Virus record (IMG/VR): IMGVR_UViG_3300020020_000040
Location: 1-52,690 of that record
DNA length: 52,690 nucleotides
Source of the DNA: a virus
Lineage: Duplodnaviria > Caudoviricetes
Reading direction: 5' to 3' (one strand)
A program made the translations under genes and the position numbers. Below are positions 1 through 52,690 of this stretch, piece after piece. Each line of letters begins with the position of its first letter. The first letter of the stretch is position 1. The notes beneath the pieces are model-generated. The model had not been told where the DNA came from and searched no databases. It was given only the letters and a program-made list of their open reading frames with translations.

Positions 1-182
1 ACCCATTATTAACTAGTTAGTTAATTGAGGCGATGAGAATGATTCTCAACAACTGCATGATGGGGGCTCATTTCACACTGCGGGGGGGTGGGGGGGCAAA
101 CTTTTGGGCTGGGCCTGGTGCCGAATCCCTCATGACTTGTACGATAAAATTTTGAAACTATGCCTGAGATTGTAAATAGTTC

Positions 183-211
183 TTGACATTTGGTTACGTT
201 TGTGGTATAAT
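183..211 (+). promoter_or_regulatory. Consensus sigma70 promoter driving the packaging/structural arm
   Basis: TTGACA (183-188), 17-bp spacer, TATAAT (206-211). Confidence 0.9.
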
Positions 212-220
212 ATATGGGTA

Positions 221-592
221 GGTGGAAATTGTCCACCAAAATCAACAGGAACTGGCTTTCCCACGCTGTCTGTGGGCCGGAAAGTAGTACCGGATAAGTT
301 TGTTAAGAGCATGCAAATCTAGGGGCGCCAGCCAGACGAAAGCTAGACAAGCGCTAGTAGTCTGGGAAGAATCGTTAATGTGATTATTTTGAACAGATGA
401 GGGCAGGCTAGCGGAAGCCTGGGTAGACGAACCCCCTACCGAACTACTGTAGGATAAGTACCTACAGGGCTGAGAGGATATGAAATTCTGTTGATACCAC
501 TTGTCTAGGACATTCTTTGTTCTACATTCTTTTCTGTGTTCTTGTTCCATTGAACTTGACACCGATGAAAGAGGGAATCACGAACCCCCTCT
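221..592 (+). ncRNA. Highly structured non-coding leader or ncRNA (unknown class)
   Basis: No credible ORF. Long-range helix ATCAACAGGA(241-250)/TTCTGTTGAT(486-495) encloses several hairpins, e.g. CCCAC/GTGGG, CCAGAC/GTCTGG, CAGGCT/AGCCTG, GGTAG/CTACC, CTGTAGG/CCTACAG. Confidence 0.55.
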
Positions 593-25600: not shown

Positions 25601-28144
25601 GGCACTCTTGATGAACTCAACATTGCTATGGCGGATCAACCGGGTGATATTAGCAGGAGTCCGATGGGACAACTACTGCGTCCTGGCATTCGACACCTGT
25701 CTGTTGACACTGGTCATCCGTTGATCAGCTTCGTCAACTACAGGATTGACCGTGCTCTATCCAAGGCCAAGTTCAAGATGAAGTCTGTTCTTGATACCAA
25801 GGATAAGCGATCGATGGTTAGTGCCATGCACAAGATGTCAGTGGAAGATAAGATCCTTGTGTCTAAGATCCTTCAGCGTGGTGATAAACTATCTGTGCAA
25901 GTGGATCCGTACCAGATTCCTGGGCTTACTAACGCCCAGATCAATGCCATCAATGCCCACTACCGAGTGGACGGAGATGTACTAGCAGAGCAACAAGCCG
26001 CTGCTAAAGCAACTGGTAACCCACCGATCAGGGCTCGGCATGGCCACACTCCTGCCTCTTTCCGTGGTACGTTTCGTGCACTGGTTAGGGATAAGGATGG
26101 TAACCCTATCGGGTTCATTGGTGAAGATAACAAGTATACCTTCGCTAAGGCTGAAGAGTGGGTGAAGAAGAATCATCCTGATGCTCACGTTACCCGTCTA
26201 CCGGATCGTGCTGCAGACAATGGATATAAGAACGCGGTTGATCTTCGTGAGTATCAGAAACTGTTTGCTGATATTCCTGATGCCTCGGAGGCTGTGATTG
26301 AAATCGCTAAGGCGATGGACAACAGCATCTACGGTATGGACAAGAGGATCAAGGAGAAGCTTGGTATCTGGGGTAGTGAAGGCAACAAGCCATGGCGTGA
26401 TGACAAGGACAATGCTAATGCATTCTTTGAGAATCTCCTGTCGTACTATGATGAGGCATACACTCACCATGCACTGCAGAGTCCTCTGAAAGATATCCAT
26501 AAAGCTACTACCGACTACGCGATGGATGCTCCCAACGCTGTTGAAGAAGTCAACCAGTATCTTCGTACCATGGTTTACCATGAGATGAATGATGTGGGTG
26601 CTGGAATCAACAAGCTAGTGGATGGTATCCTGAAAGGATTTGGCGGAAGTCTTCGTGGTACTAACAAGGCAATGTCCCCGATCAGGGAGTGGATGACTAC
26701 CTCTGCTCTTGGATTCTACAACATGCAATACCTAATGGCACAGCTTGTTCAAGTTGTAGCTACTGGTGGTCCTGTTGCTAGTGTCATCAAGAATGATCTG
26801 AAGCTCGGTACCTTTGATCAGGCTAAGGCGTATCGTGATAACCTCACGATGATGGCTGGCTTGGTTCTGGGTAAGGCTGGACCTCCGCTATCACCGGATC
26901 AGAAAGCTGCTCTTGCCTATATCAATGAGGAGACCATCGCTGGTCAATCCCACATTGAGCATAGGACTGCAGCCCACGCTGGACCTGCTGTGAGGATTGC
27001 CCGTAAGATTGGTCAGCAAACCATGAACCTTGGTGAAGCTATGACTCGTAGTCCTGTGTTCATCTCGTACTATAATCTGATTCGTAACAGCCCTGTCGGT
27101 AGAGCTATGCCTCTTGCTGACGTTCTGGATACTGCCAAGAATCTGACACAGTACGCGATGATCGACTACAACGCATGGCAGAGGCCACAGGTCTATGCTC
27201 GACTCGGTACTGCTGGTAGTCTTATCGGCACGTTCAGCACCTATAAACATGGTGTCATTGGTCTGAGTAAGACACTGGCTAAGGATGGTCTCAATGGTAA
27301 CATTGGTCCGTTCGTTCAGCTAGTGGCGTTCATGCTTGCGACTGCAGGTGCTATTGGTATGCCTGGTATCGAAGAGACTGACGAACTGATGAAGTGGTCT
27401 AACGAGAACCTTGGTACTAACATGCCTACACCGAAGGACTGGCTGCTGAAGAATGGACACCCGTGGCTTACCATGGGTCCGCTGTCTGGTATCACTGGTC
27501 TGGATCTCCATGCCAAGTATGCCATGAATAAGCTGGTCAATCTGAGCAGTGATATCATGCCCTCGTTGTCTATGTTCTACGATCCTCTGTCTGCTGTTGG
27601 TAAGCTTGCCGCTGAGTCGGTTAAGAATGGAGAGCCAAGGACTGCTACGGTTAAAGCTGCTGTTAAAGCAGCACTGCCTGCATCCCTGCGCAATCAGTTC
27701 GATACCCACTTCAATGTGAAAGAGACGCTATCAGGTAAAGGAAAGCTACTCAACAAGGAAGGTGAAGTCAAACAGTTGCTTACACAGGATGAAGTTGCTA
27801 CTCGTAAGAGTGTGCAAGGTGAGATCCTGGGTGCTAAGTCACTGACTGAATCCATTACATCCCAACGTTACTGGGAAGCTTCTAGTAAGATTAGGACGAA
27901 CGAAGATCGTATGTCTTCCATCTCCAACACATTCAAGAAATATGCATTGGATCAGTCTCTGTCTGCTGCACTGGCTAAGGAACTAATGGTTGACTATGTT
28001 GCTGCTGGTGGTAACCCTGACACCCTGATCAAGTCTGCTGGGGAGTATGTCAAGGACAGTCAACTGCCTGCCATCATGCGTGGTCTACTGAAAGGTAAAG
28101 CTACAGTGAATAAACAGATCGCCGCAGAAGCAATCAAAAAATAA
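22664..28144 (+). CDS. Large internal virion (ejection) protein with zincin-like HExxH domain
   Basis: 1826 aa, last gene of the arm; ILHEAIH and LHEFMSYGLTNP motifs. Confidence 0.7.
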   Translation: MEKGNWGDLEKEVTGSWGDLEQELGGSSGKSSADLRKEYEAMPDRDLTTMASDFAGRATKAVMSIPGSITGLVAPSSQLAKDFKDANEIIDKTWLSSQAQALDKANQAGMKEASAKGELGVSEWLGQMAKNPTELLGSEVVGQGGPLIGLGKVLATKSTALALGVMGTINSASSMGEVRQTFYQNVQKASDEDLQATTPLYASLRKQMDETSAKKILGEQIDGKLVGGMAAAGVISWLAGRTGAEKAIAGGAGTGVSGLIKTTGKEVVGGMAEGGTTSIGGNLATQSVDPFQDLLEGAALGATQEATVGVAMSAGGHLLSKQDGTQKVVDKKSKEVLDAVDKQVQNKIVDTVVPDAKGEKVMMPSPHDPNVMWEVDKNSTAYRNFMAKATAAETGSTYGVDVGDPDSTDTNFPMANKQPVQVEAVVQPKQDFGFTNIEDDGISTVDVEPVEVTPPLTKSVDVGTAYNYQTFPEGMLPTPTPIQVPRADMTMNEVVQEQTQDMNMGETLDWITTHAKNPQYQWISNRLTGFVRAYEAIGGEFSFKSQNDLLNIPGGKAQGRLIPNQPNPLRDPNEMQPGRMTAVVGQRGRSFETILHEAIHGITSNMIARSQYDPNFALDHPAMNRAVMDMQALFEHVRGKSDIPNLSKTNQRMFDNLHEFMSYGLTNPQSVQHLKNIPYQKSNAFVEFVRKIGDLLGLTQNPNAHAEMLRIFDEISQDPMQAAKTVPVSTVLAKEMINYRRQGFDLLNKTDLESGTEAAANLETDIAGVAMLSKVSGTQKAVSKQSMAEAQQAYNSAWKFENGKVVMNLKDTDPHPEATAAVNQVSATMDKFVAALNNPLWVQQNPKLAEKVRAMQSLTNQVVSRLGKRASTSERMTAMLDLVGNDPAKILRLALTDPEFSGLMAARTKNTTYMKAYLSGVQNLFDLNNIEMGALITKLENAAPVAHALIPVSSDASTIGTPNRTDNRLSGLLGNFQSIGTLDELNIAMADQPGDISRSPMGQLLRPGIRHLSVDTGHPLISFVNYRIDRALSKAKFKMKSVLDTKDKRSMVSAMHKMSVEDKILVSKILQRGDKLSVQVDPYQIPGLTNAQINAINAHYRVDGDVLAEQQAAAKATGNPPIRARHGHTPASFRGTFRALVRDKDGNPIGFIGEDNKYTFAKAEEWVKKNHPDAHVTRLPDRAADNGYKNAVDLREYQKLFADIPDASEAVIEIAKAMDNSIYGMDKRIKEKLGIWGSEGNKPWRDDKDNANAFFENLLSYYDEAYTHHALQSPLKDIHKATTDYAMDAPNAVEEVNQYLRTMVYHEMNDVGAGINKLVDGILKGFGGSLRGTNKAMSPIREWMTTSALGFYNMQYLMAQLVQVVATGGPVASVIKNDLKLGTFDQAKAYRDNLTMMAGLVLGKAGPPLSPDQKAALAYINEETIAGQSHIEHRTAAHAGPAVRIARKIGQQTMNLGEAMTRSPVFISYYNLIRNSPVGRAMPLADVLDTAKNLTQYAMIDYNAWQRPQVYARLGTAGSLIGTFSTYKHGVIGLSKTLAKDGLNGNIGPFVQLVAFMLATAGAIGMPGIEETDELMKWSNENLGTNMPTPKDWLLKNGHPWLTMGPLSGITGLDLHAKYAMNKLVNLSSDIMPSLSMFYDPLSAVGKLAAESVKNGEPRTATVKAAVKAALPASLRNQFDTHFNVKETLSGKGKLLNKEGEVKQLLTQDEVATRKSVQGEILGAKSLTESITSQRYWEASSKIRTNEDRMSSISNTFKKYALDQSLSAALAKELMVDYVAAGGNPDTLIKSAGEYVKDSQLPAIMRGLLKGKATVNKQIAAEAIKK

Positions 28145-34040: not shown

Positions 34041-34779
34041 TATGGAATGCAGTAGGTCCATCCAAACAACTTGCACCTGACGCTATCGATTGGAGAACGT
34101 AAGCCCTCTCGGCTTCTGTCCTCATGATTGTCAGCAATCTTTTATTCAGTAAAAACTGATCGAGCATATCATGGAAGTCATACAGATCACGGACATGATC
34201 CGCCATCTCATTCACATACAACTTGTTCAGGATCTTTGCTGACTTAGCAGGACCGATACCCGGTAGACCAGGGATGTCATCACTGTTATCACCCATCAAC
34301 ATCTGTTGCCAGAAGTTGAAGTGTGCATCTGGATCTGATACATTCGTCACCTCACCCTTAACAAAGTTATAGTGAATACCTGGAATCTGTAGCAGATCCT
34401 TGTCGATGGATACGATTACATCCCCATCAGCATAAGCAATACCAAGTTCGTCATCAGTCTCGATATCCTGTGCCAGTTCGAAGTGCCACTTCTCTAGCAG
34501 GTATTCCCTGCATAGCTCAAGGTGGGTAGGCACTGGCACATCACGACGAGAGTGCTTATAGTCTGCATAGATGGAGTGGCGAAAGTTATTCCCTCCCCCG
34601 ATCCAGCCCCTATAATCCTGAGTGTTCATGTTATAGAAGATCTGTTCAATGCATTGATTGATCCGACCCTTAGCTACGTAACCCTCTTCAGGGACAGCAC
34701 CTGCTTCCCTCTCTGCTTTGCGTGGTTCACAACTAGCAGCACATCGATAGGCGATGATGTCGCCATCAAGTAGCAGCAT
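34021..34779 (-). CDS. 5'-3' exonuclease (T7 gp6 / FEN-like)
   Basis: LLDGDIIAY, NFR..YK, ETDD, SIDKDL, GDNSDDIPGLPGIGP. Confidence 0.9.
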   Translation of the reverse strand: MLLLDGDIIAYRCAASCEPRKAEREAGAVPEEGYVAKGRINQCIEQIFYNMNTQDYRGWIGGGNNFRHSIYADYKHSRRDVPVPTHLELCREYLLEKWHFELAQDIETDDELGIAYADGDVIVSIDKDLLQIPGIHYNFVKGEVTNVSDPDAHFNFWQQMLMGDNSDDIPGLPGIGPAKSAKILNKLYVNEMADHVRDLYDFHDMLDQFLLNKRLLTIMRTEAERAYVLQSIASGASCLDGPTAFHNETCIS

Positions 34780-36587: not shown

Positions 36588-36819
36588 CATCACCACCCTT
36601 CCATCGTTTCATTGATTCCTTGCGCAGATTTTTATTCAGTAAAATCTTTTCAGCCGCGACCTTAAGTGCTGCATCAGGGAAGTTCTTCAGTGCCTTGATC
36701 TCTTTATCCCGATCAGCTACTTCTACTGTCAGTCGATTGATCAGGTACCTCTGATCCTTGATAGTCTGTTGCAACTTCTCAAAGGTATCTCGCCTGATTG
36801 TGGTTAGCTCATCACTCAT
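36580..36819 (-). CDS. Small coiled-coil protein inside the split polymerase locus
   Basis: ATGAGTGA overlap with the polymerase N-half stop. Confidence 0.55.
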   Translation of the reverse strand: MSDELTTIRRDTFEKLQQTIKDQRYLINRLTVEVADRDKEIKALKNFPDAALKVAAEKILLNKNLRKESMKRWKGGDDE

Positions 36820-41112: not shown

Positions 41113-41807
41113 AATACCAGAAACTCCTTGATTTGTTCGTCGTTGTAATCCTTTGGATCCTTCAACGAATATATAACGTCACAACTAGGTAGGAATAGTG
41201 ACAAGGTACACGACAGGTCAATGGCATCGAGATACTTGTCAGCATCTAGCCAAATCGTGACGCTATTAAAGCCACTAACAAACTTTGTACCGACAGCAGA
41301 GAGGACAGAGCCAAACAAGCACAGACAGGGAAGATGCCGAGCGACTTTAATACCAGACACAATGTCTTCAACCAACACAAGGCTAGAACTACTGTTGCCA
41401 GCATATTCATTGAGAGTAGGAACCAGACTATCATGTGGCTTACTCCCGTAGCTGCGTGTCTTGGGCTTACGTCCATCCACTGCCCTGAATTCCATGAACC
41501 CTTTTACTGAGTAAAAATGTTTGCCAGTAACCCTGTCCATCTTGAAGTGGGTGTTAATCTCTTGGTCTGTTAGACCGTAAGACTTGAGCCACTCATAGTT
41601 CTGTGTCCCCCTGATTGGGACTTCAATGGTGTTAGGAAATACTACCTCATCATCATCTTCCAATACTTTAGGAGTGAAGATCCGCCCACTCTTATGATAT
41701 CCACAAGAGAAGCAGTGATACCCACCATCAGGATAGGTGACTAGGTTATCACCAGACCTATCCTTACCGTGGTCTCTACATCTCGGACATGGACTCTTAA
41801 CTTTCTT
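41109..41807 (-). CDS. DNA primase (Zn-binding plus TOPRIM); start codon unresolved
   Basis: In-frame CPRC..DNL.YPDG..HCFSC upstream of the annotated TTG; LVLVEDIVS, LFGS, WLDAD, KDPK. Confidence 0.85.
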   Translation of the reverse strand, partial: KKVKSPCPRCRDHGKDRSGDNLVTYPDGGYHCFSCGYHKSGRIFTPKVLEDDDEVVFPNTIEVPIRGTQNYEWLKSYGLTDQEINTHFKMDRVTGKHFYSVKGFMEFRAVDGRKPKTRSYGSKPHDSLVPTLNEYAGNSSSSLVLVEDIVSGIKVARHLPCLCLFGSVLSAVGTKFVSGFNSVTIWLDADKYLDAIDLSCTLSLFLPSCDVIYSLKDPKDYNDEQIKEFLVL

Positions 41808-42621: not shown

Positions 42622-43680
42622 TTACTTCACCACCGAATACGTAATTGGGATCGTTTGGCACTTAGCCACTTTGATTGTATCAGGAACAAAGGTGTCTGTC
42701 ATATCTTCCAATGGGTCATGTTCACAATCACCAAGAAGAACTAGTTCTCGTCTAGCATTGATTCGATCAAATATATCAATCTCCAACCACGTACCCAAAT
42801 CCCTTTTCAAGATGCCTACTGTACCACGGTGAAGACCAGCTACCACAAAGAACAATTTGTAGGTATTACTCTTAAGAGAGAACGAATTTAGTGAAGATAG
42901 GAACGTTAGGACAACAGAATGTAGCGTCGAGCCAGACACCACATCAGAGATTTTACTCGGTAAAACAAAATCAATCTTTAGCTCAGTGGTTGATTCTGGT
43001 TCTTTATAGTCAAAGGCATCAAACGAAACATCAGCCTGAGGAGCAGTGTTAAATTGACTCTGACCAATGGTAAACATTGGCTGACTACCACCATACCAAG
43101 CACTCTCAATCGTCTTGACCTCCGTCGTCTTTACTGCTGGCTTGGTGGCCGGAGAGACTATGTAGTTAAGCTGCTCCTCAAAGAATCCCTTGACATGCGT
43201 CTTTTTACCGGCACTCTGTAGTTTACCATACAGACTGTAGATCGCATCCCCGGCAGCACTACTCAATCTACGGGTACTACCATCAGAGTACACAACTACT
43301 AGATCTACCCCAGGACTGCCGATCGGTACGTGATTCTTCCTTGCACGAAGACGTGTAATATCAAGCAGGCTGTAAACCTTCAGGATACTACCTGGAACAA
43401 CCATCCCCAGTTCATGAGTCAGACTGTTAGGACCAGTTCCATAACTATCAATGGATTGTTCCGGATTGAAGATGCACGAACCGTTAGGTCTTACCAGTCT
43501 CCTGCTTCCATTGGTGAACGTGACAAGATGGTACACATACAGCTGACTATAGCTTCCGAGAATGTCGCCTAGAAGAAACGCCTGATCGTCAGAAAGGAAG
43601 ATATGCCTGTGATGTGGATGAGCACCTTGGCTCGTAGGAAAGAGACCATTGATATGTACATCAACAACAGTCGGGTCCAT
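42622..43680 (-). CDS. Hypothetical protein
   Basis: 352 aa ORF, GAGG RBS. Confidence 0.65.
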   Translation of the reverse strand: MDPTVVDVHINGLFPTSQGAHPHHRHIFLSDDQAFLLGDILGSYSQLYVYHLVTFTNGSRRLVRPNGSCIFNPEQSIDSYGTGPNSLTHELGMVVPGSILKVYSLLDITRLRARKNHVPIGSPGVDLVVVYSDGSTRRLSSAAGDAIYSLYGKLQSAGKKTHVKGFFEEQLNYIVSPATKPAVKTTEVKTIESAWYGGSQPMFTIGQSQFNTAPQADVSFDAFDYKEPESTTELKIDFVLPSKISDVVSGSTLHSVVLTFLSSLNSFSLKSNTYKLFFVVAGLHRGTVGILKRDLGTWLEIDIFDRINARRELVLLGDCEHDPLEDMTDTFVPDTIKVAKCQTIPITYSVVK

Positions 43681-44559: not shown

Positions 44560-45303
44560 TTACTTAACAATAACAGATTTAAAGGTGTTCACGAAGTAGT
44601 CAGCAGTGGAATCCACCATACCAGGCGCACTGTTGATTTCCAGTACATACGCCTTATTGTAGTGCTTATTCCACACAATGTCAATAGCACCGAAGTCCAT
44701 ATCAAACGCTTGTGCTACCTTGGCAGCAGTCTCAACAACGACAGGACTCAACTCATGGTTGACACTACCGTACACATACCCATTGTCCAGATTCTGAATT
44801 TTTGAGTGCGACTCTCCAGTTTTCTTCAGTTTCTGTTTAATCAGACTGCTGGAAGCACCTTTTACCCAGTAAACTCGATATTCACGGGCTTTCTTGATGT
44901 ACTGAGTATACAACGGAACGTTGTGCAAGTCAACAGCATTATTTGCAAGGATAATACCCTTGCCGCTGTGACTATTCAGCAATGCCCTACCGACTACCAG
45001 ATACCCTTCCGAGAGCCATTCGAGGGCGACATTCTTGTCCGTTGTCCAAGGAGGAACGCAGTCCCCGAGACCTGCCTTGGTGATTTGCTGGAAGAACTCC
45101 AATTTGTTGCCGATCGGATTGGCATTGAGGATCTTTGCCACGGGGAATTCTGGAATAGACGCACTGCCCCAATTGATAATGACATCAGTTGCCTTTGGTT
45201 TGTATTTGGAATTGGTGTGTTTAATCAGCTTCCCGCCAATCTTCGTGGCAAGCAGCTTAGCCGACTCACTTGACGGCTTATATGGATAAACAAAGATCCT
45301 CAC
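44560..45303 (-). CDS. ATP-grasp (RimK/glutathione synthetase-like) ligase
   Basis: INWG, NK, HSGKGI, YIKK.REYRV, DFGAIDI, LEINSAPG; GTG 45303 overlaps the upstream stop. Confidence 0.88.
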   Translation of the reverse strand: MRIFVYPYKPSSESAKLLATKIGGKLIKHTNSKYKPKATDVIINWGSASIPEFPVAKILNANPIGNKLEFFQQITKAGLGDCVPPWTTDKNVALEWLSEGYLVVGRALLNSHSGKGIILANNAVDLHNVPLYTQYIKKAREYRVYWVKGASSSLIKQKLKKTGESHSKIQNLDNGYVYGSVNHELSPVVVETAAKVAQAFDMDFGAIDIVWNKHYNKAYVLEINSAPGMVDSTADYFVNTFKSVIVK

Positions 45304-46613
45304 GCATCCTCCGTAACAGTACCAACAAATTCTTCCTGACATGCCTGACAGATCAGGCCATGGACTGTCTTGTTGATACCAGTCCGAATAGCCAGATACT
45401 CACCATGAAAATCTTGATGCATCATGGAATCACAAACAGCACAGTTATCCAGAACAAGGCTAACCAGTTCTGACTTCGTGACTTCCGATCCACATCCCAG
45501 ATACAACTTCTTATCCGGCTCTTTGAGATCAGTTACATCAACGGGTTCTAATTTCCAATAAGAGTTTTTCTCGATTTGGTACTCAACAAACTGCTTTCCA
45601 TCCCTCATGATGGTCTGGGGTGGTGACTGCAACATGCCCTCAAACGCATCAGTATCCCAATTCGGAATTTTCCAATCTGTAACGATTGACATGAGTTCGT
45701 GGCGATCTGTTATTCCTGAATACTTGTACCTTCCTCCCGGAAACGTCGTCTCCTCGATAAGAGAGAAAACGCAAAACATGTCGTCATTGGCTTGCCCTCC
45801 TTTCTTATTCTTCCCCCTGATCTTCGGAAGATGCTTGACCTTCCTTCCGTAAGGACCATCACTATCCTTAGTACCCTTCGTATAATGATAGTAGGTAGTG
45901 GTCTTGGGCTTTGGGTTTTTGATAACCGTTTCCCCCTCCATCAAAACAGAGGATTTGCCATCAAGAATGTAATGCGTATCTTCCTTCAACTCGTACAGCG
46001 TGTATCGCTTCGGATCGAACGTCTTGAACTGTCGAGGTAGGATCCAATCCATCATCGCAATTTCACTGGCCCAGAAGAACGTCTTGTCATACTCGACAAT
46101 AGAAAACGGGCGTTCTTTGTTGGCGAAGAAGTTCAGACTCTTTTCGTTGTCATCCCACCACACACAAGCATATGCACCATGGATGTCTGCAAACGCCTTG
46201 ACTCCCTTCGCAGCAACCTCACTGGTCAGCCAGTCACTGTCCACACTGAATTCAAGCGGGAAGTTATTGGTCAACGTGCCGTTATGGGCCATGGTAATGT
46301 GCCCACGAGTAAACGGATGGGCATTAGCACCCGTAACTCCACCCTTGGTAGCAGCACGATGATGGCCGATGATGGTGGCAGCATCCTTGTCCATGCTTGT
46401 TTTGAACGTCTGCCAGATACCACTACCAAACAGTTGCCACGGGGCACCCGCGGTCTTGATTGCCCTTAGATTAGCACCATCCTTGTCAACCGCTACGATA
46501 CCAGTGCCATCCATACCACGGACAACTCCAGCGAGCATCATGTTGTACATGACATTAAGCTCGGTAAAGGTCAGTGCCGCCGTAGGTCGATGAAGCCCAA
46601 AATGTCCACACAT
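45300..46613 (-). CDS. Class II (Ntn) glutamine amidotransferase with C-terminal Zn ribbon
   Basis: N-terminal MCG, RGMDGTG, GHHRAAT, NAHPF, HNGTL, VDSD, FWASE; CAVC...CQAC. Confidence 0.9.
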   Translation of the reverse strand: MCGHFGLHRPTAALTFTELNVMYNMMLAGVVRGMDGTGIVAVDKDGANLRAIKTAGAPWQLFGSGIWQTFKTSMDKDAATIIGHHRAATKGGVTGANAHPFTRGHITMAHNGTLTNNFPLEFSVDSDWLTSEVAAKGVKAFADIHGAYACVWWDDNEKSLNFFANKERPFSIVEYDKTFFWASEIAMMDWILPRQFKTFDPKRYTLYELKEDTHYILDGKSSVLMEGETVIKNPKPKTTTYYHYTKGTKDSDGPYGRKVKHLPKIRGKNKKGGQANDDMFCVFSLIEETTFPGGRYKYSGITDRHELMSIVTDWKIPNWDTDAFEGMLQSPPQTIMRDGKQFVEYQIEKNSYWKLEPVDVTDLKEPDKKLYLGCGSEVTKSELVSLVLDNCAVCDSMMHQDFHGEYLAIRTGINKTVHGLICQACQEEFVGTVTEDA

Positions 46614-46626
46614 TCGGTTTTATTCC

Positions 46627-47502
46627 TTAAAACAGGTCAGAAATGAAGTGCTTTGCAGCCAGAATCATCAAACGAGTTTCCGACCTTGTAAGTTCATCGG
46701 CTCCAGGAAGGGCAGTACCAAAAGCATCCGAGATAAATCCCGAATAGTTCTTGGTCATCGATACATCTTCCAGATTCCGAATGTGTTGACGCAAGGGCGT
46801 CTTTTCCGCATACGTATGCAATGCAGCAATGGCATTCATCCACGCACGGAGATCATCAATACTCTTGGTCCCAGGATGATGCCTGAATTCAAGCGTACCA
46901 TAATCCCGCAGATGGTAGAAATTCAACCCGCAGTATTTGAACTTCTTAAGCGAGTCACCACTGCAAATCGTCTTCTTGTCCAGCAAGTGGATGTTCGCTC
47001 CACTGCCAACAATAGGGAAACAATATGCATTGTTATGCCGCTTCCCTTCACCGACGAAGTTAAAATACAACTTCTCCGATGCGATATAGGCCGAGATCAG
47101 GACGATCAATTGCTCGATCGACAGATCATTGACACCCATATGCACATGGATACTGCACCGATGAGAAAAGACAGAGTTGGCGTTGACAGTAAAGATATAC
47201 TCCAATTCTTCGAACGCTTTCCCAAACTGCGTTCCACGAATCGGCCTGCTGATATACTCCATCCCTGAATCTTTCAGCGATCCATCACCCTCAGCATTCC
47301 ACAAAGGCATTTGGACATCACTCACCTGACACTTTTCCAATTCCACTTCCACACCGAAGCTGGTCGTAGAATCAACACCTGCGGGTGCTCCGGCGGGCGG
47401 AAATAGTTTGTTGTGTGAGATGAAGTCCGTGACGATTGGGGCCTCACTCAGCCCGTAGTACCCTAGAACCGTGTGATCGAGATATTGCAAGACGCCAGAC
47501 AT
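46627..47502 (-). CDS. Amidoligase (glutamine synthetase-fold COOH-NH2 ligase)
   Basis: FGVEVELE, GDGSL, MEYIS, CSIHVH, GTLEFR. Confidence 0.85.
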   Translation of the reverse strand: MSGVLQYLDHTVLGYYGLSEAPIVTDFISHNKLFPPAGAPAGVDSTTSFGVEVELEKCQVSDVQMPLWNAEGDGSLKDSGMEYISRPIRGTQFGKAFEELEYIFTVNANSVFSHRCSIHVHMGVNDLSIEQLIVLISAYIASEKLYFNFVGEGKRHNNAYCFPIVGSGANIHLLDKKTICSGDSLKKFKYCGLNFYHLRDYGTLEFRHHPGTKSIDDLRAWMNAIAALHTYAEKTPLRQHIRNLEDVSMTKNYSGFISDAFGTALPGADELTRSETRLMILAAKHFISDLF

Positions 47503-48107
47503 TCGGCAACCTCATGGACGTAATTGGGAAGAACCGTTACCTTGGTCATGGACTTGTTGAACAGCCCAATCACAGAATCAAGAAAGTACAGACGGCCACG
47601 CCAAAAACACATCTCCGGAGAGATCGGGCCGAATGATCCCAAAGCCTTGTCAGTATCATAGACAAGGGAATCAGGAGAGATAAGCTCCCCATCCTCTACA
47701 AACTTCGGGACCACTTTCTGAGCATCCGAAACCTTGATTTGCGGATTCCAGATTTTATACGTCGAATGGCTGACCCCTTGCTGATAAGACTTTATCATTC
47801 GCTTGATGGTAAGTACAGCCTGAATCTGGTCATCCTGAAACTTGAACTTTTCATGAGTCAGGAGAGGCCAGTATACGGGCGGCAGTTGGATATAGACAGG
47901 ATGAAGATCGTCATAGGAAACGACGTCACCATCAATCCATCCATTAGGCCCCTGACCAGTAACCCTCATCGAATCCTCACCAACCTTGGTGATATAGAGT
48001 TGATAGTGTTTCCCGGTCTTTGTATCAACGCACGGAACCCAGGATTGATGGAACCGGAGTTGATATGCCTCCGAGTTCCATTCCTTCTGATATAGTAGTT
48101 TCTTCAT
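47463..48107 (-). CDS. Hypothetical protein within the amidoligase cluster
   Basis: ATGA overlap with the ligase gene. Confidence 0.6.
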   Translation of the reverse strand: MKKLLYQKEWNSEAYQLRFHQSWVPCVDTKTGKHYQLYITKVGEDSMRVTGQGPNGWIDGDVVSYDDLHPVYIQLPPVYWPLLTHEKFKFQDDQIQAVLTIKRMIKSYQQGVSHSTYKIWNPQIKVSDAQKVVPKFVEDGELISPDSLVYDTDKALGSFGPISPEMCFWRGRLYFLDSVIGLFNKSMTKVTVLPNYVHEVAECLASCNISITRF

Positions 48108-48922
48108 ACTTTCTCAAGAACAGCCGAATACACAGAGTCATACTGATTCGTCATGTTGTCACGAATCAAAGTCAGAATATCGATATTCTCGATAGTTGCC
48201 ATGGCACCAGTCGGCATGGCTTCGAAGAAACTGGCGGTTTGTTCCAGAATCTCGTCATAGGCACTGAGATTGTCCACGACATCGGTGACAACGCCATAGA
48301 CTTCCCGCATCAGTTGCTCGCTGGTCAGCCAGATGTTGCTTGGCACACGATACTCGACGCCATAAGGCTTCAAGCGACATGCACCAGCATTCCCATACAA
48401 CTCATTCCGACGGTCAGTCGGGTTGAGCATGGCCAAGGGAACACCAAGCATCAGATCCAGCACCCGAACCAGCTGCATCTTCTTCGCCAGATTCATCTGT
48501 ACGCCGATGTGGATATGACCACCAGCAGTGCGAAGATTGGTAGATGTGGCCGACGGGGCAGGATTCGGTTCCAACAGCCAAGCATTGAAGTCAGGATTGC
48601 AGCCAAACGTCTGCGCACCTTCCGTCTTCAACTCGCTGTCCGGGAACTCCAGAGCACTGACAATCCCAACATGCAGACCGTTCGGATTGGCGATCTTGTT
48701 GCGAACAAAATCCAACGCCTTGGTGTGGTTCGCAATCCACGCCTCGACATTGCTAGCCGGTGGGATGTTGAACTCCACCGTCACATTATCTTCGAGGTAG
48801 GCATAGTTGCCCTGCTTCAAGGGATTTTCTTTCGTCCCACCCACCAGTCCGACAGCCGATACAGGCTGGTCTGACGAATTGAGTAGGAACACTTCAGGGT
48901 CCGAACCAAGCAGAATCTTCAT
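48104..48922 (-). CDS. phiEco32-like COOH.NH2 ligase type 2
   Basis: GSDPEVF, EDNVTVEFN, FGCNPD, LRTAGGHIHIG, YGVEYR. Confidence 0.9.
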   Translation of the reverse strand: MKILLGSDPEVFLLNSSDQPVSAVGLVGGTKENPLKQGNYAYLEDNVTVEFNIPPASNVEAWIANHTKALDFVRNKIANPNGLHVGIVSALEFPDSELKTEGAQTFGCNPDFNAWLLEPNPAPSATSTNLRTAGGHIHIGVQMNLAKKMQLVRVLDLMLGVPLAMLNPTDRRNELYGNAGACRLKPYGVEYRVPSNIWLTSEQLMREVYGVVTDVVDNLSAYDEILEQTASFFEAMPTGAMATIENIDILTLIRDNMTNQYDSVYSAVLEKV

Positions 48923-48945
48923 ACTGTTTTATCCAGTAAAACGGT

Positions 48946-49581
48946 TTAGAGAATGAAACGATCGACGAGACTTTTGGTCAACTGACCCATGGGTGACGCC
49001 GGATTGCCGTACTCAGGATGATATTGCATCATCAGAGCACGAACGCGATCCTGCTCAAGAAAAGCAACTTCGACTTCAGGACGCTTGGTCTTTTCCTCGC
49101 CTTCAGCCGTCACATAGATATTGCTCAACGGCTCTTTCGATACCGCAATCACTTCCATCTTGTCCGATGGTTTCATCATTTGATGATGCGACGATGAAAC
49201 GCTGACAACGGAACCCTCTGCATATTCTTTGCAGATGTCCCGTGTCAGTACGATCGGATGATTGCCGTGACCATGCCCAGAGATATGCTGATACAGCGTA
49301 CCTCCAAGCATTGCACACAACAATTGCGCACCACGACAGACTCCAATCATGGGAATCTTCTTCGTGATGCATTCTTCGATCAGGGCACATTCGAAAATGT
49401 CCCTTGCTCGGTCTTGCTCTTGGCAAGCGACATTCTCATGTCCGTAGATTCCCGGATTGATGTCACTACCGCCCCAGAATACCAGGGCTTCGGGCTTGGT
49501 GTCCCTCAAATCCCTGATAGACCGGATGGTGGCCGAGTTCAGACCGAAATACTTGATTTGATAGAGTACCGATCCAATCAC
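48946..49581 (-). CDS. Class I glutamine amidotransferase / peptidase C26-like
   Basis: GGSDINP..YG, GVCRGAQ, SSHHQ, QYHPE catalytic triad. Confidence 0.9.
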   Translation of the reverse strand: MIGSVLYQIKYFGLNSATIRSIRDLRDTKPEALVFWGGSDINPGIYGHENVACQEQDRARDIFECALIEECITKKIPMIGVCRGAQLLCAMLGGTLYQHISGHGHGNHPIVLTRDICKEYAEGSVVSVSSSHHQMMKPSDKMEVIAVSKEPLSNIYVTAEGEEKTKRPEVEVAFLEQDRVRALMMQYHPEYGNPASPMGQLTKSLVDRFIL

Positions 49582-49952: not shown

Positions 49953-50034
49953 GTTTTATCCTGTAAAATCCTCTAACACGCTTCATCGGGTGATAAAGCA
50001 CTATTGGAGCCTATGTTTCAAAGCCCCAATAATA

Positions 50035-50830: not shown

Positions 50831-50923
50831 TCTGTACTCCGTTTTATCGGATAAAATACGCGGAGATGAGGACTGCAACAGACATCAACACGCTCACACG
50901 AAACACACAACGCTGTAGTACAG

Positions 50924-51055
50924 TCACCAGATTTCCACGTTTTTGTATCCTTGGGCGAGGAGCCTGGCTTTTGCTTCGGCTTTGTCCCACGCACGGACGG
51001 AGGTGTTGAACGTAACATTTTCTTGTGTGGTCACTGTTGCGGCGAAATCAGACAT
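50924..51055 (-). CDS. Small early protein (43 aa)
   Basis: GGAG RBS; MSDFAATVTTQENVTFNTSVRAWDKAEAKARLLAQGYKNVEIW. Confidence 0.5.
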   Translation of the reverse strand: MSDFAATVTTQENVTFNTSVRAWDKAEAKARLLAQGYKNVEIW

Positions 51056-51254
51056 CATCGTACTCCGTCAGAATCACGGCCGACTCAGGCTGCTCTTGAG
51101 CGTTCAGTGTCCAGATCAGAAACGAATCAACCAGCAAGCAGCCCAGCACGACAGCAGTGCCGGCACTCATCACGATCGACACTGCTCCGAGCATTGCCAT
51201 GATTGCGCCACATGCAACGCCAATCTCACGCGCGGGGTTTGTTTCAGTGAACAT
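51048..51254 (-). CDS. Small membrane protein (2 TM)
   Basis: AAGGA RBS; hydrophobic hairpin. Confidence 0.55.
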   Translation of the reverse strand: MFTETNPAREIGVACGAIMAMLGAVSIVMSAGTAVVLGCLLVDSFLIWTLNAQEQPESAVILTEYDDV

Positions 51255-51278
51255 GATATTTAAATCCTTGGGGTTGTT

Positions 51279-51449
51279 TTATCGAGTAAAACGGTCCGGC
51301 TCGCACCGATACACAGACTCGGCAATACGGAACTGGCCATTGCCATCACAACCAGCAATAACATGCTTCGCAACAGTGAAAACACCGGCGACGAACATAG
51401 TTCCGCCGACAATCACTGCAACAATGAACATAACAGCCGAGGTATTCAT
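51279..51449 (-). CDS. Small membrane protein (1 TM, two Cys)
   Basis: MNTSAVMFIVAVIVGGTMF...GC..GQF....YRC. Confidence 0.55.
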   Translation of the reverse strand: MNTSAVMFIVAVIVGGTMFVAGVFTVAKHVIAGCDGNGQFRIAESVYRCEPDRFTR

Positions 51450-51478
51450 TTTATCCAATAAAACTGTTTGAGAAACTT

Positions 51479-51534
51479 GCCAGACCCGGCATTGCACCGG
51501 GTTTCGACTGCGCGTTGGCAGTCTCGTCAGTGGC
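51479..51534 (-). ncRNA. Hammerhead ribozyme, type I
   Basis: Minus strand GCCA CUGACGA GACUGC-CAACGC-GCAGUC GAAA CCCGGU-GCAAU-GCCGGG UC^UGGC; complete core; GUC cleavage between 51483 and 51482. Confidence 0.9.
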
Positions 51535-51536
51535 TG

Positions 51537-52091
51537 TTAGGCTGCAGCAGTGGCAGGCTTGTCAATCTGCGCGGTAAGCGCTGCGATCAACTCGATAACA
51601 TAGTCCGGGCCCTTGGTCGCCAACAGATGCGCCGCATGTTTCTCGACAGTTTCGAGTGCAGCAGTAACATCAGTCAGATCAACAGCCACAGCAGCAGCTG
51701 TTACCTCGTCCTCGGCCGATTTCTGGGCTTTCGGCTCGACAGCTTCACCCTTCCAATTCACGGACAGGGATTTCAGGTACTTCGCAGCGTCCGAATAGAT
51801 CCCGGCACAGTTCCGACCCTCGACAGGCACGAAACCCTGGACCATCGCACCGAAGATCGCTTTCGCACGGCTGCTGTAGTTGTAGGCAGTCCCGAGAGCC
51901 GGCGAATCCTTGCGGACCTTGCTGAGCGTAGCTTGCGCTTCACCGAGAATCGCTTGCTTGCTCTCGACTGGCAGATCAGCAGCGATCAGTTCAGAAACCA
52001 TCCCTACCATCTGCTCGGCGACTGAGTCTTGTTCGGCCATCGACTTGTACAGTGCAACCAGCGCAGTGCTGTCATTGAAATTCATGCTCAC
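51537..52091 (-). CDS. Ala-rich helical early protein flanked by two ribozymes
   Basis: AAGGA RBS, GTG start, 184 aa. Confidence 0.75.
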   Translation of the reverse strand: MSMNFNDSTALVALYKSMAEQDSVAEQMVGMVSELIAADLPVESKQAILGEAQATLSKVRKDSPALGTAYNYSSRAKAIFGAMVQGFVPVEGRNCAGIYSDAAKYLKSLSVNWKGEAVEPKAQKSAEDEVTAAAVAVDLTDVTAALETVEKHAAHLLATKGPDYVIELIAALTAQIDKPATAAA

Positions 52092-52243
52092 TTTACGTTC
52101 CTTTCAGTTTTACCGGATAAAACCGGCGGAGTTTGTGTGGTACGATGCAAGACGCATCTTTCCCACGAGCCCTATCTTACCATGCCCATGTTGCTGCAAT
52201 GTGTCAAACAGGTAAGACTTTGTAACTAGAGTAACAGTTTGTA

Positions 52244-52300
52244 ACAGTGGTCTCATCGGCGTGGACACTATCCACGGACCCTCTCGCGAGGGTTTCGACC
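52244..52300 (-). ncRNA. Hammerhead ribozyme, type II (U4C core variant, pseudoknot)
   Basis: Minus strand GGUC GAAA CCCUC-GCGA-GAGGG UC^CGUGGA-UAGUG-UCCACG CCGAUGA GACC ACUG; loop I UAGU can pair with the 3' ACUG; cleavage between 52277 and 52276. Confidence 0.82.
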
Positions 52301-52302
52301 TC

Positions 52303-52542
52303 TTACTGCATAAAACTCAGACCAAACCTACGTTCAAGGTAGTCATGATAGGCTTGGACACCCGCATTGAAAGCCTGCAATTCTGCTTCGGGAATGTCCA
52401 GACCACGCATGATCGCTTGCCTCCGGCACTCGCTGTCGCGTTCGTTGATCTTGGCAATCTCTGACTTGATCGCGGGGCTGATGTCTTGGATGCGCACTTT
52501 GTACTCCTTGGACGGTTCCTGGGGGAGATCAGATAATCTCAT
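52303..52542 (-). CDS. First early gene, hypothetical protein
   Basis: 79 aa ORF ending 2 nt before the type II hammerhead. Confidence 0.55.
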   Translation of the reverse strand: MRLSDLPQEPSKEYKVRIQDISPAIKSEIAKINERDSECRRQAIMRGLDIPEAELQAFNAGVQAYHDYLERRFGLSFMQ

Positions 52543-52690
52543 AAATCGGGGGCAGAATCCAATGATATTACACTATGGACACTGCAAGGAGGATAGTATT
52601 GTAAGTTTTACTGGATAAAATAGGGGGCTAGAGCATGGGGCTATATACAAATGGGGGCTGTGTTAGTGTGTACTAACTTGTTGATAGCCC

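What the first reader, a model, noticed from the sequence alone, without database searches (positions are those of the whole stretch)
51479..52300. An early gene bracketed by two hammerhead ribozymes: self-excising and possibly circular phage mRNA
Seen: a type II hammerhead (52300-52244) and a type I hammerhead (51534-51479), both on the coding strand, each starting 2 nt after a stop codon and each with a GUC cleavage triplet. Double cleavage releases 52276-51483 (794 nt) containing a structured 5' UTR, the RBS and the whole 184-aa ORF. Known: hammerheads leave 5'-OH and 2',3'-cyclic phosphate ends, which are RtcB substrates, and 5'-OH RNA is a poor substrate for 5'-end-dependent RNase E. Also seen: joining the ends gives GUC GAAA [stem III] UC-[stem I] CCGAUGA GAC, a chimeric hammerhead with a 3-bp stem II that might self-ligate or re-open. 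Inference: a protein-free system producing a stabilised or circular mRNA for one highly expressed early protein. The conservative alternative is ribozyme-based polycistron processing.
Basis: partly seen in the sequence, partly recalled or inferred. Interest (0 to 1): 0.92.

Follow-up and report, generated by a model that had tools for sequence, protein, structure and literature searches.

The report
Phage gene flanked by two hammerheads
Two self-cleaving hammerhead RNA motifs really do bracket one small gene of unknown function at the end of a soil phage genome, but this arrangement has been known in phages since 2011 and nothing here supports the idea that the cut-out RNA becomes a circle.

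Summary
A descriptor scan of both strands finds two hammerhead motifs in the 52.7-kb phage genome, at the reported coordinates; dinucleotide shuffles give 0.02 per genome. Each begins 2 nt after a stop codon. The predicted cuts (52277|52276 and 51483|51482) release 794 nt.

The upstream type II motif belongs to a compact 52-nt phage subfamily. A covariance model built from 72 other phage copies scores it 62.8 bits, E=3e-20. A metagenomic relative keeps it with compensatory stem changes. It carries the rare U4C core change (2 of 122 copies), reported to reduce activity.

Hammerheads flanking single genes are common: 50 of 118 phage loci surveyed have two or more on one strand. Perreault et al. 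2011 described this, proposed processing into single-gene mRNAs, and looked for circles without finding any.

Here the chimeric junction ribozyme costs +10.7 kcal/mol. The phage encodes no detectable RtcB. A spacer more conserved than the coding sequence, with a promoter-like block, separates the upstream ribozyme from the gene. A relative has hairpins where the downstream ribozyme sits.

Verdict: intercistronic mRNA punctuation; a new member of a known kind.

The parts
52303..52542 (-). ORF79, a small upstream gene. Its stop codon TAA is at 52305-52303, 2 nt before the type II hammerhead.
   Evidence: ORF list. No Pfam or PHROG match. Its C-terminal 21 aa are 52% identical to the small ORF that precedes the homologous hammerhead in L002.
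52249..52300 (-). Type II hammerhead motif with open stem II. Predicted cleavage is after C17, between 52277 and 52276. The core carries U4C (CCGAUGA).
   Evidence: Model R1 scores it 62.8 bits, E=3e-20. Across the window copy and two L002 copies, 48 of 48 cells pair and 7 of 16 pairs show compensatory changes. U4C occurs in 2 of 122 subfamily copies.
52212..52248 (-). Three TTAC(A)-type direct repeats about 10-11 nt apart, directly 3' of the hammerhead. Function unknown.
   Evidence: 31 of 37 positions are identical to L002. Similar repeats follow both L002 hammerheads. The motif is not repeated elsewhere in the genome.
52174..52207 (-). Promoter-like conserved block: TTGACA, a 22-nt spacer, then TGgTAAGAT (extended -10-like).
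   Evidence: 32 of 41 positions of the surrounding block are identical to L002. It does not meet the tool's sigma-70 criteria, which require a 16-18-nt spacer.
52092..52170 (-). Leader of ORF184: a 5' hairpin, an AU-rich palindromic hairpin (52122-52108) and a Shine-Dalgarno-like AAAGGAAC.
   Evidence: Fold of -23.1 kcal/mol, z=-2.5. The palindrome motif is counted. Conserved in L001 and L002.
51537..52091 (-). ORF184, a predicted all-helical protein of unknown function.
   Evidence: No Pfam or PHROG match. Five relatives at 61-69% identity. Nine proteins at E<=0.001 among 1.84 billion representatives. AlphaFold2 mean pLDDT 80.3. No fold match at E<=0.001 in PDB or BFVD.
51479..51534 (-). Type I hammerhead motif with open stem I and a canonical core. 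Predicted cleavage is between 51483 and 51482.
   Evidence: Rfam RAGATH-1-hammerhead 21.3 bits, below the gathering score. This is a single sequence with no comparative support. Relative L001 has stable hairpins at this position instead.
51279..51463 (-). The next cistron, a 58-aa hydrophobic ORF starting at ATG 51455. The AU-rich palindrome at 51463-51449 overlaps its start codon. It starts 23 nt after the hammerhead's end.

Best explanation
Two hammerhead self-cleaving ribozymes act as intercistronic punctuation in the leftward transcript that starts at the right end of this phage genome.

Shown:
- Both motifs are genuine members of the hammerhead family by sequence and fold.
- The type II motif belongs to a compact 52-nt subfamily that is widespread in phage contigs.
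- Members of that subfamily typically sit directly after a stop codon (median 2 nt) and about 24 nt before the next start codon, often in arrays that bracket single small genes.

Inferred:
- Co-transcriptional cleavage leaves each upstream cistron (ORF79, then ORF184) with its stop codon intact and a hairpin-closed 3' end (stem III) carrying a 2',3'-cyclic phosphate.
- Each downstream RNA gets a 5'-hydroxyl end. For the type II cut this end is closed by the stem I hairpin.
- The cistrons are thereby uncoupled in stability and translation.

Specific to ORF184:
- The ribozyme-to-start distance is 157 nt instead of about 24 nt.
- The intervening spacer is more conserved than the coding sequence and contains a promoter-like block.
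- I therefore think ORF184 is made from two RNA species. One is read-through RNA trimmed at 52276. The other is a primary transcript starting near 52167 that receives only the 3' cut at 51483.
- The U4C core probably makes the upstream cut slow or partial.
- The products stay linear.
For: Motifs:
- Only 2 hammerhead motifs in the genome against 0.02 expected.
- Minimum-free-energy folds reproduce the junctions.
- Model R1, built without the window, gives 62.8 bits, E=3e-20.

Conservation:
- The homologous position in L002 (after a related small ORF, before the ORF184 homologue) holds a canonical type II hammerhead scoring 74.1 bits.
- Stems I, II and III show compensatory changes: 7 of 16 pairs, 48 of 48 cells paired, and 0 of 500 shuffles reach the covariation score.

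Class behaviour:
- 131 pattern matches that fixed only the core and stem III; 122 also have a 6-bp stem I and a stem II of at least 3 bp.
- 50 of 118 IMG/VR loci have two or more hammerheads on one strand. There are 81 consecutive pairs with a median spacing of 482 nt.
- Stop-to-hammerhead distance: median 2 nt, with 121 of 189 within -10..+4.
- Hammerhead-to-next-start distance: median 24 nt, with 97 of 175 at 20-39 nt and only 7 of 175 at 80 nt or more, the window included.

Literature:
- Hammerheads flanking genes in prophages cleave in vitro, and in E. coli for the A. tumefaciens triple array. Processing into single-gene mRNAs was proposed (PMC3088659, passages).
- Three type II hammerheads in phage-like regions of D. 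vulgaris, two of them about 250 nt apart, cleave in vivo (PMC8782182, passages).

Internal promoter:
- The spacer is 78-84% identical to L002, against 65.6% for the coding sequence and 48% for the ORF79 3' end.
- The TGnTANNAT element is conserved.

Exchangeable 3' element:
- L001 has two stable hairpins (-39.1 kcal/mol, z=-3.0) where the window has the type I hammerhead.
Against: - No cleavage assay and no RNA data exist for this phage.
- The type I motif is a single sequence without comparative support. Its open stem I is only 4 bp, and I found no obvious tertiary contact.
- The type II motif has U4C, reported to lower activity considerably.
- Loop I / 3'-tail pairing of this subfamily is no better than in permuted controls, so a known activity-boosting pseudoknot is not evident.
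- Rfam gathering scores are not reached.
- The promoter-like block has a 22-nt spacer between TTGACA and the -10-like hexamer, and fails the tool's sigma-70 criteria. The host is unknown.
- My descriptor set contains some false positives: 24 of 192 hits lie inside long ORFs.
Confidence: 0.7

Rival explanations
1. Circular mRNA. After both cuts, the 794-nt RNA is ligated end to end, either by host RtcB or by a chimeric hammerhead formed at the junction. This would give a circular, exonuclease-resistant, translatable mRNA.
For: - The end chemistry of hammerhead products (5'-OH and 2',3'-cyclic phosphate) is what RtcB joins. This is established knowledge, recalled.
- Hammerhead-bounded RNAs are circularised in viroids and retrozymes (PMC6765202 passages; PMC7229834 abstract in the search listing).
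- The junction can be drawn as a type II-like hammerhead with a 3-bp stem II (one search confirms the pairing positions).
- Perreault et al. raised the same possibility.
Against: - Enforcing the chimeric hammerhead costs +10.7 kcal/mol relative to the circular minimum-free-energy fold (-268.7 against -279.4). Its 11.x strand is already paired in the type I motif's own 6-bp stem II.
- That chimera would also carry the U4C core.
- In the linear fold, the terminal hairpins of the two ends are not held together by a helix. Only a 4-bp contact, 47 nt from the 3' end, appears.
- The phage encodes no RtcB or Rnl2-type ligase.
- Perreault et al. could not detect spliced or circular products from comparable arrays (data not shown in that paper).
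- A likely internal promoter would give RNAs that lack the 5' cut.
- In relative L001 the 3' ribozyme is absent.
Confidence: 0.05
2. The upstream type II hammerhead is a decaying or inactive copy because of U4C. Only the downstream type I ribozyme works, so ORF184 is expressed from its own promoter and merely 3'-trimmed.
For: - U4C occurs in only 2 of 122 subfamily copies.
- It is reported to decrease activity considerably in vitro.
- A conserved promoter-like block lies between the ribozyme and the gene.
- The window copy scores 11 bits below the homologous L002 copy.
Against: - All 16 base pairs and every other core position are intact.
- The same paper notes that the U4C viroid variant keeps enough activity in vivo for infectivity.
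- A second U4C copy (L043) also sits in a two-hammerhead array with intact helices, scoring 58.7 bits.
Confidence: 0.2
3. One or both motifs are chance matches with no ribozyme function.
For: - Rfam gathering thresholds are not reached.
- The type I motif has no homologue to test covariation on.
Against: - 0.02 motifs are expected per shuffled genome against 2 observed. They are on the same strand, and each sits 2 nt after a stop codon, the modal position of the class.
- The type II motif scores E=3e-20 with an independent model, and covariation is seen in a relative.
Confidence: 0.03

Closest known systems
Multiple hammerhead ribozymes flanking single genes or short gene blocks in prophages (Perreault et al. 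2011, PLoS Comput Biol, PMC3088659). Examples: the A. tumefaciens triple array around ardA, C. scindens, A. caulinodans.
   Same: - Same-strand hammerheads, mostly type II, sit in short intergenic gaps of phage DNA and bracket one gene.
- Processing into single-gene mRNAs was proposed there, and circular or spliced products were considered.
- My survey reproduces the pattern in 50 of 118 IMG/VR loci.
   Different: - This is a type II + type I pair. Only 2 of 190 descriptor hits in my type II-ascertained set were type I, and I checked neither further.
- The upstream copy carries U4C.
- A long, conserved 157-nt spacer with a promoter-like block lies between ribozyme and gene.
- The flanked gene is an uncharacterised 184-aa protein.
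- I read passages, not the figures or supplements, so I cannot say whether mixed-type pairs are shown there.
Type II hammerheads loc 2 and loc 3 of Desulfovibrio vulgaris (Olzog et al. 2021, cyPhyRNA-seq, PMC8782182).
   Same: Two type II hammerheads a few hundred nt apart, next to phage-like genes. Both were shown to cleave in vivo and in vitro (passages).
   Different: They lie in a bacterial chromosome (a phage-like region) rather than a free phage genome. Both are type II. No function was assigned.
Hammerhead-bounded circular RNAs: viroids (Avsunviroidae), satellite RNAs and retrozymes.
   Same: Two hammerhead cuts define a unit-length RNA with 5'-OH and 2',3'-cyclic phosphate ends, which a host ligase can close.
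   Different: - There the two cuts are made by copies of the same ribozyme in a repeat, so ligation rebuilds it. The RNA is a rod-like non-coding or retroelement RNA.
- Here the two ribozymes differ in type.
- The junction chimera is disfavoured by 10.7 kcal/mol.
- The unit is an mRNA.
- No ligase is encoded.
Synthetic ribozyme insulators between promoters or cistrons, such as RiboJ
   Same: A self-cleaving ribozyme placed 5' of a gene removes upstream RNA context and leaves a hairpin-closed 5'-OH leader.
   Different: These are engineered parts, whereas the phage elements are natural. The phage elements sit directly after the preceding stop codon, so they also define the upstream 3' end.

Membership tests
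Hammerhead ribozyme (upstream motif, type II) | Conserved core: C3 U4 G5 A6 N7 G8 A9, G12 A13 A14, and a U-H cleavage site. | tested here: inconclusive
   Every core position matches except U4, which is C (CCGAUGA). U4C is a documented natural variant with reduced activity. It occurs in 2 of 122 copies of this subfamily.
Hammerhead ribozyme (upstream motif, type II) | Three helices around the core, with G10.1-C11.1 and A15.1-U16.1 closing pairs, supported by covariation. | tested here: met
   4-, 6- and 6-bp helices are present and the minimum-free-energy fold reproduces them. With the two L002 copies, 48 of 48 cells pair and 7 of 16 pairs show changes on both sides. Model R1 gives 62.8 bits, E=3e-20.
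Hammerhead ribozyme (upstream motif, type II) | Rfam Hammerhead_II (RF02276) gathering score. | tested here: not met
   18.2 bits against 37. The threshold also misses 28 of 28 descriptor-defined copies in ten other phage loci. The canonical L002 copies score 27.6-28 bits. The failure therefore reflects the model, not only this sequence.
Hammerhead ribozyme (upstream motif, type II) | Tertiary contact: a pseudoknot between loop I and the tail 3' of stem II, common in type II hammerheads. | tested here: inconclusive
   A 4-5-bp pairing can be drawn in the window. Across the 122 subfamily copies, this complementarity equals that of the permuted control.
Hammerhead ribozyme (downstream motif, type I) | Conserved core plus three helices. 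| tested here: met
   CUGACGA, GAAA and GUC are present with helices of 4, 6 and 7 bp. The motif is one of only two in the genome, against 0.02 expected.
Hammerhead ribozyme (downstream motif, type I) | Covariation in homologues, or an Rfam gathering score. | tested here: not met
   No homologous copy was found. L001 has hairpins at this position instead. The best Rfam hit is RAGATH-1-hammerhead at 21.3 bits against 56.3.
Hammerhead ribozyme (both motifs) | Site-specific self-cleavage giving 5'-OH and 2',3'-cyclic phosphate ends. | not testable with these tools
   No RNA run holds the sequence. A cleavage assay is needed.
Phage intercistronic hammerhead arrays | Two or more same-strand hammerheads in short intergenic gaps, each just after a stop codon, bracketing one or a few small genes. 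| tested here: met
   Both motifs start 2 nt after a stop, equal to the class median of 2 nt. The spacing between them is 714 nt against a class median of 482. The type I motif ends 23 nt before the next start, against a class median of 24.
Hammerhead-derived circular RNAs (viroid or retrozyme type) | Ligation of the two cut ends rebuilds a complete, stable hammerhead, or the ends are held together by a helix. | tested here: not met
   The two ribozymes are of different types. The chimeric junction hammerhead has a 3-bp stem II and costs +10.7 kcal/mol.
Hammerhead-derived circular RNAs (viroid or retrozyme type) | Detected circular junction or RNase R-resistant species. | not testable with these tools
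   There are no RNA data.

The most novel reading that the evidence does not exclude
The 794-nt RNA released by the two cuts is closed by a host RtcB-type ligase into a circular, translatable phage mRNA. This would make it a natural bacterial counterpart of engineered ribozyme-plus-RtcB circular RNAs. My evidence makes ribozyme-catalysed self-ligation very unlikely, but it cannot exclude protein-mediated ligation in an unknown host.
Probability: 0.05. Interest if true: 0.85.

Novelty: new member of a known kind. Interest (0 to 1): 0.3.

Why it matters
The biological purpose of the thousands of hammerheads in phage DNA is still open. A 2019 review says processing of polycistronic RNAs has been suggested, but more work is needed (PMC6765202, passages).

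This locus is a clean, small test case:
- A complete 52.7-kb phage genome contains exactly two ribozymes.
- One is canonical and one is a natural U4C variant.
- They bracket one conserved orphan gene that probably also has its own promoter.
- In a relative, the 3' ribozyme position is occupied by plain hairpins.

That exchange fits the view that these ribozymes are RNA-end-forming punctuation. So does the strict placement of the class directly after stop codons (median 2 nt) and about 24 nt before the next start. On this view the ribozymes are interchangeable with other 3'-end elements. The finding does not open a new category.

Tried and rejected
Searches for relatives:
- Close relatives of ORF184 in IMG/VR: none with a single-protein query or with the 6-sequence alignment. 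None in GenBank phages by DNA or tblastn.
- The metagenome scan gave two short contigs, L001 and L002. They might show whether the type I ribozyme is conserved.
- A GATase neighbour gave no IMG/VR relatives.
- An exact 19-nt stretch spanning the core and tail gave 0 IMG/VR hits.
- Distant relatives by terminase (Alcaligenes phage vB_Af_QDWS535 at 47.5% and MW202796 at 44.4%) share the genome layout. They have no hammerhead by descriptor or by model R1.

Expression:
- No RNA holder was listed for the sequence. The two DNA runs are from the sample the record may come from.
- Their contigs match with 0 differences and end at about 52642-52659.

Function of ORF184:
- No Pfam or PHROG match.
- The remote relatives P0008-P0014 have no Pfam family over cut-off.
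- Foldseek against PDB and BFVD gave nothing at E<=0.001.
- The ESM Atlas gave only viral hypothetical clusters; the best named lead was DUF3102 at 0.80, below the level to trust.

Structural and regulatory ideas:
- Pseudoknot between loop I and the 3' tail: rejected as unsupported.
- The promoter scan tool found no minus-strand sigma-70 site in 50900-52690. The promoter-like block is therefore argued from conservation only.
- L001's downstream hairpins do not meet the tool's terminator criteria, so I call them hairpins, not a terminator.
- No hammerhead spans the record's ends, and there is no terminal repeat of 10 nt or more.
- An N4-like hairpin-promoter idea for the AU-rich palindrome was considered and dropped. 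Its distance to start codons varies from 0 to 22 nt, and the 1826-aa protein has no Pfam or PHROG match.
- PF09511 (T4 Rnl1) search: the control rang nowhere, so the result is uninformative.

Circularity caveat: the 100% pairing is circular, because I had selected those 72 sequences for paired stems. I do not use it as evidence.
Full report
WHAT THE WINDOW IS

The window is a whole IMG/VR virus record of 52,690 bp, classed 'linear', with a CheckV completeness of 100%.
- The plus strand from about 0.8 to 28 kb carries terminase, portal and tail genes.
- The minus strand from about 28.6 to 52.5 kb carries ribonucleotide reductase, thymidylate synthase, a split family-A DNA polymerase, DnaB helicase, and a glutamine-amidotransferase / amidoligase cluster.
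- The layout is shared with Alcaligenes phage vB_Af_QDWS535, whose terminase is 47.5% identical.
- The finding lies within 1.2 kb of the right end, at the start of the leftward arm. 'Early' is therefore an inference from position; there are no expression data.
- Two Logan assemblies from the same sample reproduce 51300-52640 with 0 differences. Both stop at about 52642-52659.

THE OBSERVATION

Type II motif, 52300-52249:
- Open 4-bp stem II.
- GAAA, then a 6-bp stem III capped by GCGA.
- GUC, with C17 at 52277.
- A 6-7-bp stem I.
- The core strand reads CCGAUGA.

Type I motif, 51534-51479:
- Open 4-bp stem I.
- CUGACGA, then a 6-bp stem II.
- GAAA, then a 7-bp stem III.
- GUC, with C17 at 51483.

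Each motif starts 2 nt after a TAA stop. The fragment between the two cuts is 794 nt.

Chance:
- A descriptor that I wrote for all three hammerhead topologies finds only these two sites on both strands of the genome.
- In 100 dinucleotide-preserving shuffles it found a mean of 0.02 sites. None had as many base pairs.
- ViennaRNA's minimum-free-energy fold reproduces both three-way junctions, alone and in context.

RFAM AND A BETTER-SUITED MODEL

- Rfam reports nothing at gathering score.
- With E-value reporting, Hammerhead_II scores 18.2 bits (gathering score 37) and RAGATH-1-hammerhead 21.3 bits (gathering score 56.3).
- I tested whether that threshold is informative for this kind of hammerhead. 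It is not. At gathering score Rfam found 0 matches in ten phage loci that hold 28 descriptor-defined hammerheads. The two canonical copies in relative L002 reach only 27.6-28 bits.
- I therefore built a covariance model (R1) from 72 distinct IMG/VR copies of the same 52-nt geometry. The window, L002 and the other U4C copy were excluded.
- With filters off, R1 scores the window's type II motif 62.8 bits, E=3e-20. The next hit in the genome scores 17.1 bits.
- L002's copies score 74.1 and 59.0 bits.

RELATIVES OF THE LOCUS

ORF184 has no Pfam or PHROG family. It has five relatives at 61-69% identity. Two are on short metagenome contigs that I could read.

L002:
- The order is: small ORF; type II hammerhead; small ORF whose C-terminus resembles ORF79's (52% over 21 aa); type II hammerhead with a canonical CUGAUGA core; a 158-nt spacer; the ORF184 homologue.
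- Across the window's copy and the two L002 copies, all 48 pair cells are standard pairs.
- 7 of 16 pairs changed on both sides, and 0 of 500 shuffles reach the covariation score.
- This is direct comparative support for the upstream ribozyme.

L001:
- This contig shows the downstream side, and there is no hammerhead there.
- The same gap holds two stable hairpins (-39.1 kcal/mol, z=-3.0).
- They do not meet the tool's terminator criteria.
- The type I motif therefore stands on its own sequence, its improbability by chance, and its class-typical position.

HOW COMMON THE ARRANGEMENT IS

- A pattern that fixed only GAAA, most of stem III, GUC, a 17-nt gap and CYGANGA hit 118 stretches of IMG/VR.
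- Of 131 matches (window and L002 included), 122 also have a 6-bp stem I and a stem II of at least 3 bp, which the pattern did not demand.
- Scanning the loci with the full descriptor gave 190 hammerheads: 184 type II, 4 type III and 2 type I.
- 50 of the 118 IMG/VR loci carry two or more on one strand, up to five in a row.
- For 81 consecutive pairs the median gap is 482 nt.
- The distance from the preceding stop codon to the hammerhead has a median of 2 nt, with 121 of 189 within -10..+4.
- The distance from the hammerhead to the next start codon has a median of 24 nt, with 97 of 175 at 20-39 nt.
- Caveats: the loci were ascertained by a type II pattern. The descriptor has false positives (24 of 192 hits lie inside long ORFs). 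I did not inspect each hit.

WHAT IS ALREADY PUBLISHED

- Perreault et al. [quoted passage not shown] Three such arrays cleave in vitro, and one cleaves in E. coli.
- The same paper proposes that long phage transcripts may be processed into single-gene mRNAs. [quoted passage not shown]
- It also notes that the U4C variant 'considerably decreases activity in vitro' yet permits viroid infectivity.
- Olzog et al. 2021 (PMC8782182, passages) showed in vivo cleavage of three type II hammerheads next to phage-like genes. Two of them lie about 250 nt apart.
- A 2019 review (PMC6765202, passages) says the purpose is still undefined.
- My four literature searches turned up no demonstration of a circular phage mRNA made this way. 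I cannot exclude one in journals outside the library.

WHAT IS PARTICULAR HERE

1. U4C. Only 2 of 122 subfamily copies have it: the window and L043. Both are second members of a pair and both have intact helices.

2. The spacer.
   - The upstream ribozyme is 157 nt from the ORF184 start. Only 7 of 175 cases are at 80 nt or more.
   - Between the window and L002 the spacer is 84% identical over the TTAC-type repeats, 78% over the TTGACA...TGnTANNAT block, and 79% over the leader.
   - By comparison, the ORF184 coding DNA is 65.6% identical and the ORF79 3' end 48%.
   - The block is unique in the genome. It fails the sigma-70 scan because its spacer is 22 nt.
- I read it as a promoter/operator region with moderate confidence.

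3. The 3' ribozyme is replaced by hairpins in a relative.

MECHANISM I COMMIT TO

The ribozymes punctuate the leftward transcript.
- A cut 24-52 nt past each stop leaves the upstream cistron complete and ending in the stem III hairpin with a cyclic phosphate.
- The downstream RNA starts with a 5'-OH. After the type II cut it starts inside the stem I hairpin.
- These end structures are expected to slow 3' exonucleases and 5'-end-dependent RNase E. This is established knowledge, recalled, not tested here.
- Because the ribozyme starts 2 nt after the stop, a terminating ribosome would cover its 5' strand. Cleavage must therefore occur before or between ribosome passages. This is inference only.
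- ORF184 is probably fed both by trimmed read-through RNA and by its own promoter.

CIRCULARISATION

- Joining 51483 to 52276 gives a type II-like chimera. Its stem II is 3 bp, and its 5' strand belongs to the type I motif's own 6-bp stem II.
- In a circular fold of the 794-nt RNA, the minimum free energy is -279.4 kcal/mol. With the chimera enforced it is -268.7, a penalty of 10.7 kcal/mol.
- No RtcB or Rnl2-type ligase is encoded (controls rang in 10 and 6 of 14 genomes).
- Host RtcB cannot be examined because the host is unknown.
- I put the circular reading at about 5%.

ORF184 ITSELF

- The AlphaFold2 model is all-helical, with mean pLDDT 80.3 from a 6-sequence alignment.
- No fold match reaches E<=0.001 in PDB or BFVD.
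- Nine proteins reach E<=0.001 among 1.84 billion representatives, none with a Pfam family over cut-off.
- Atlas neighbours are viral hypothetical proteins.
- Its function remains unknown. 'Highly expressed' is unsupported.

VERDICT

- The self-excision reading is plausible by analogy with tested arrays, but it is weakened by U4C and by a likely internal promoter.
- The circular-mRNA reading is unsupported.
- The arrangement is a new member of a kind described in 2011.

Noticed in passing
window 52606-52620, 52108-52122, 51449-51463, 51277-51291, 50842-50856, 49954-49968, 48927-48941, 46618-46632, 44860-44874, 42951-42965, 41502-41516, 36630-36644, 34140-34154 (plus 2816-2830, 24897-24911, 52301-52315); L001 37-51 and 797-811: A 15-nt AU-rich palindrome, TTTTAY-NNN-RTAAAA, occurs 16 times with at most 1 mismatch (12 exact), against 0.28 expected. 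14 of the 16 lie in the minus-strand arm, and many sit 0-22 nt upstream of start codons, several without an obvious Shine-Dalgarno sequence. It is conserved before the ORF184 homologues in L001 and L002, but is essentially absent from the other hammerhead-bearing phage loci: 1 site outside L001 in 1.18 Mb. As RNA it would be a 6-7-bp hairpin with a triloop; as DNA, an operator-like inverted repeat. It may be the target of a phage translational or transcriptional regulator. Unexplained.
   Followed up: partly
window 52212-52248 (-); L002 318-350 and 581-612: Each type II hammerhead of this lineage is followed directly by three TTAC(A)-type direct repeats about 10-11 nt apart. They are 84% identical between the window and L002, more conserved than the ribozyme stems. 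The one-helical-turn spacing suggests a protein-binding site on DNA upstream of the promoter-like block. An RNA role is not excluded.
   Followed up: partly
L043 12669-12720 and 13406-13457 (+): A second natural U4C (CCGAUGA) copy of the same 52-nt type II hammerhead. It too is the second member of a two-hammerhead pair, 686 nt after a canonical copy. The two score 58.7 and 62.6 bits with R1.
   Followed up: partly
IMG/VR loci L005, L064, L081, L088, L089, L107 and others: Arrays of four or five same-strand type II hammerheads spaced a few hundred nt apart, each typically abutting a stop codon. Rfam's Hammerhead_II gathering score missed all 28 descriptor hits in the ten loci tested. This compact subfamily is therefore probably under-annotated.
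   Followed up: partly
window 22664-28144 (+): An 1826-aa ORF at the end of the structural module has no Pfam or PHROG match.
   Followed up: no
window 44560-49581 (-): A cluster of glutamine amidotransferase (Peptidase_C26/GATase), amidoligase, Gn_AT_II-type aminotransferase and an RimK-like 'S6 glutaminyl transferase' homologue. It is shared with Alcaligenes phage vB_Af_QDWS535. It may be a small-molecule or nucleotide/peptide modification module.
   Followed up: no
window 1-250 and 52640-52690: The record's ends are non-coding, with a C-rich tract near the left end and no terminal repeat of 10 nt or more. Two independent assemblies of the same sample stop within about 50 nt of the right end. 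This is consistent with physical genome termini rather than an arbitrary cut.
   Followed up: partly
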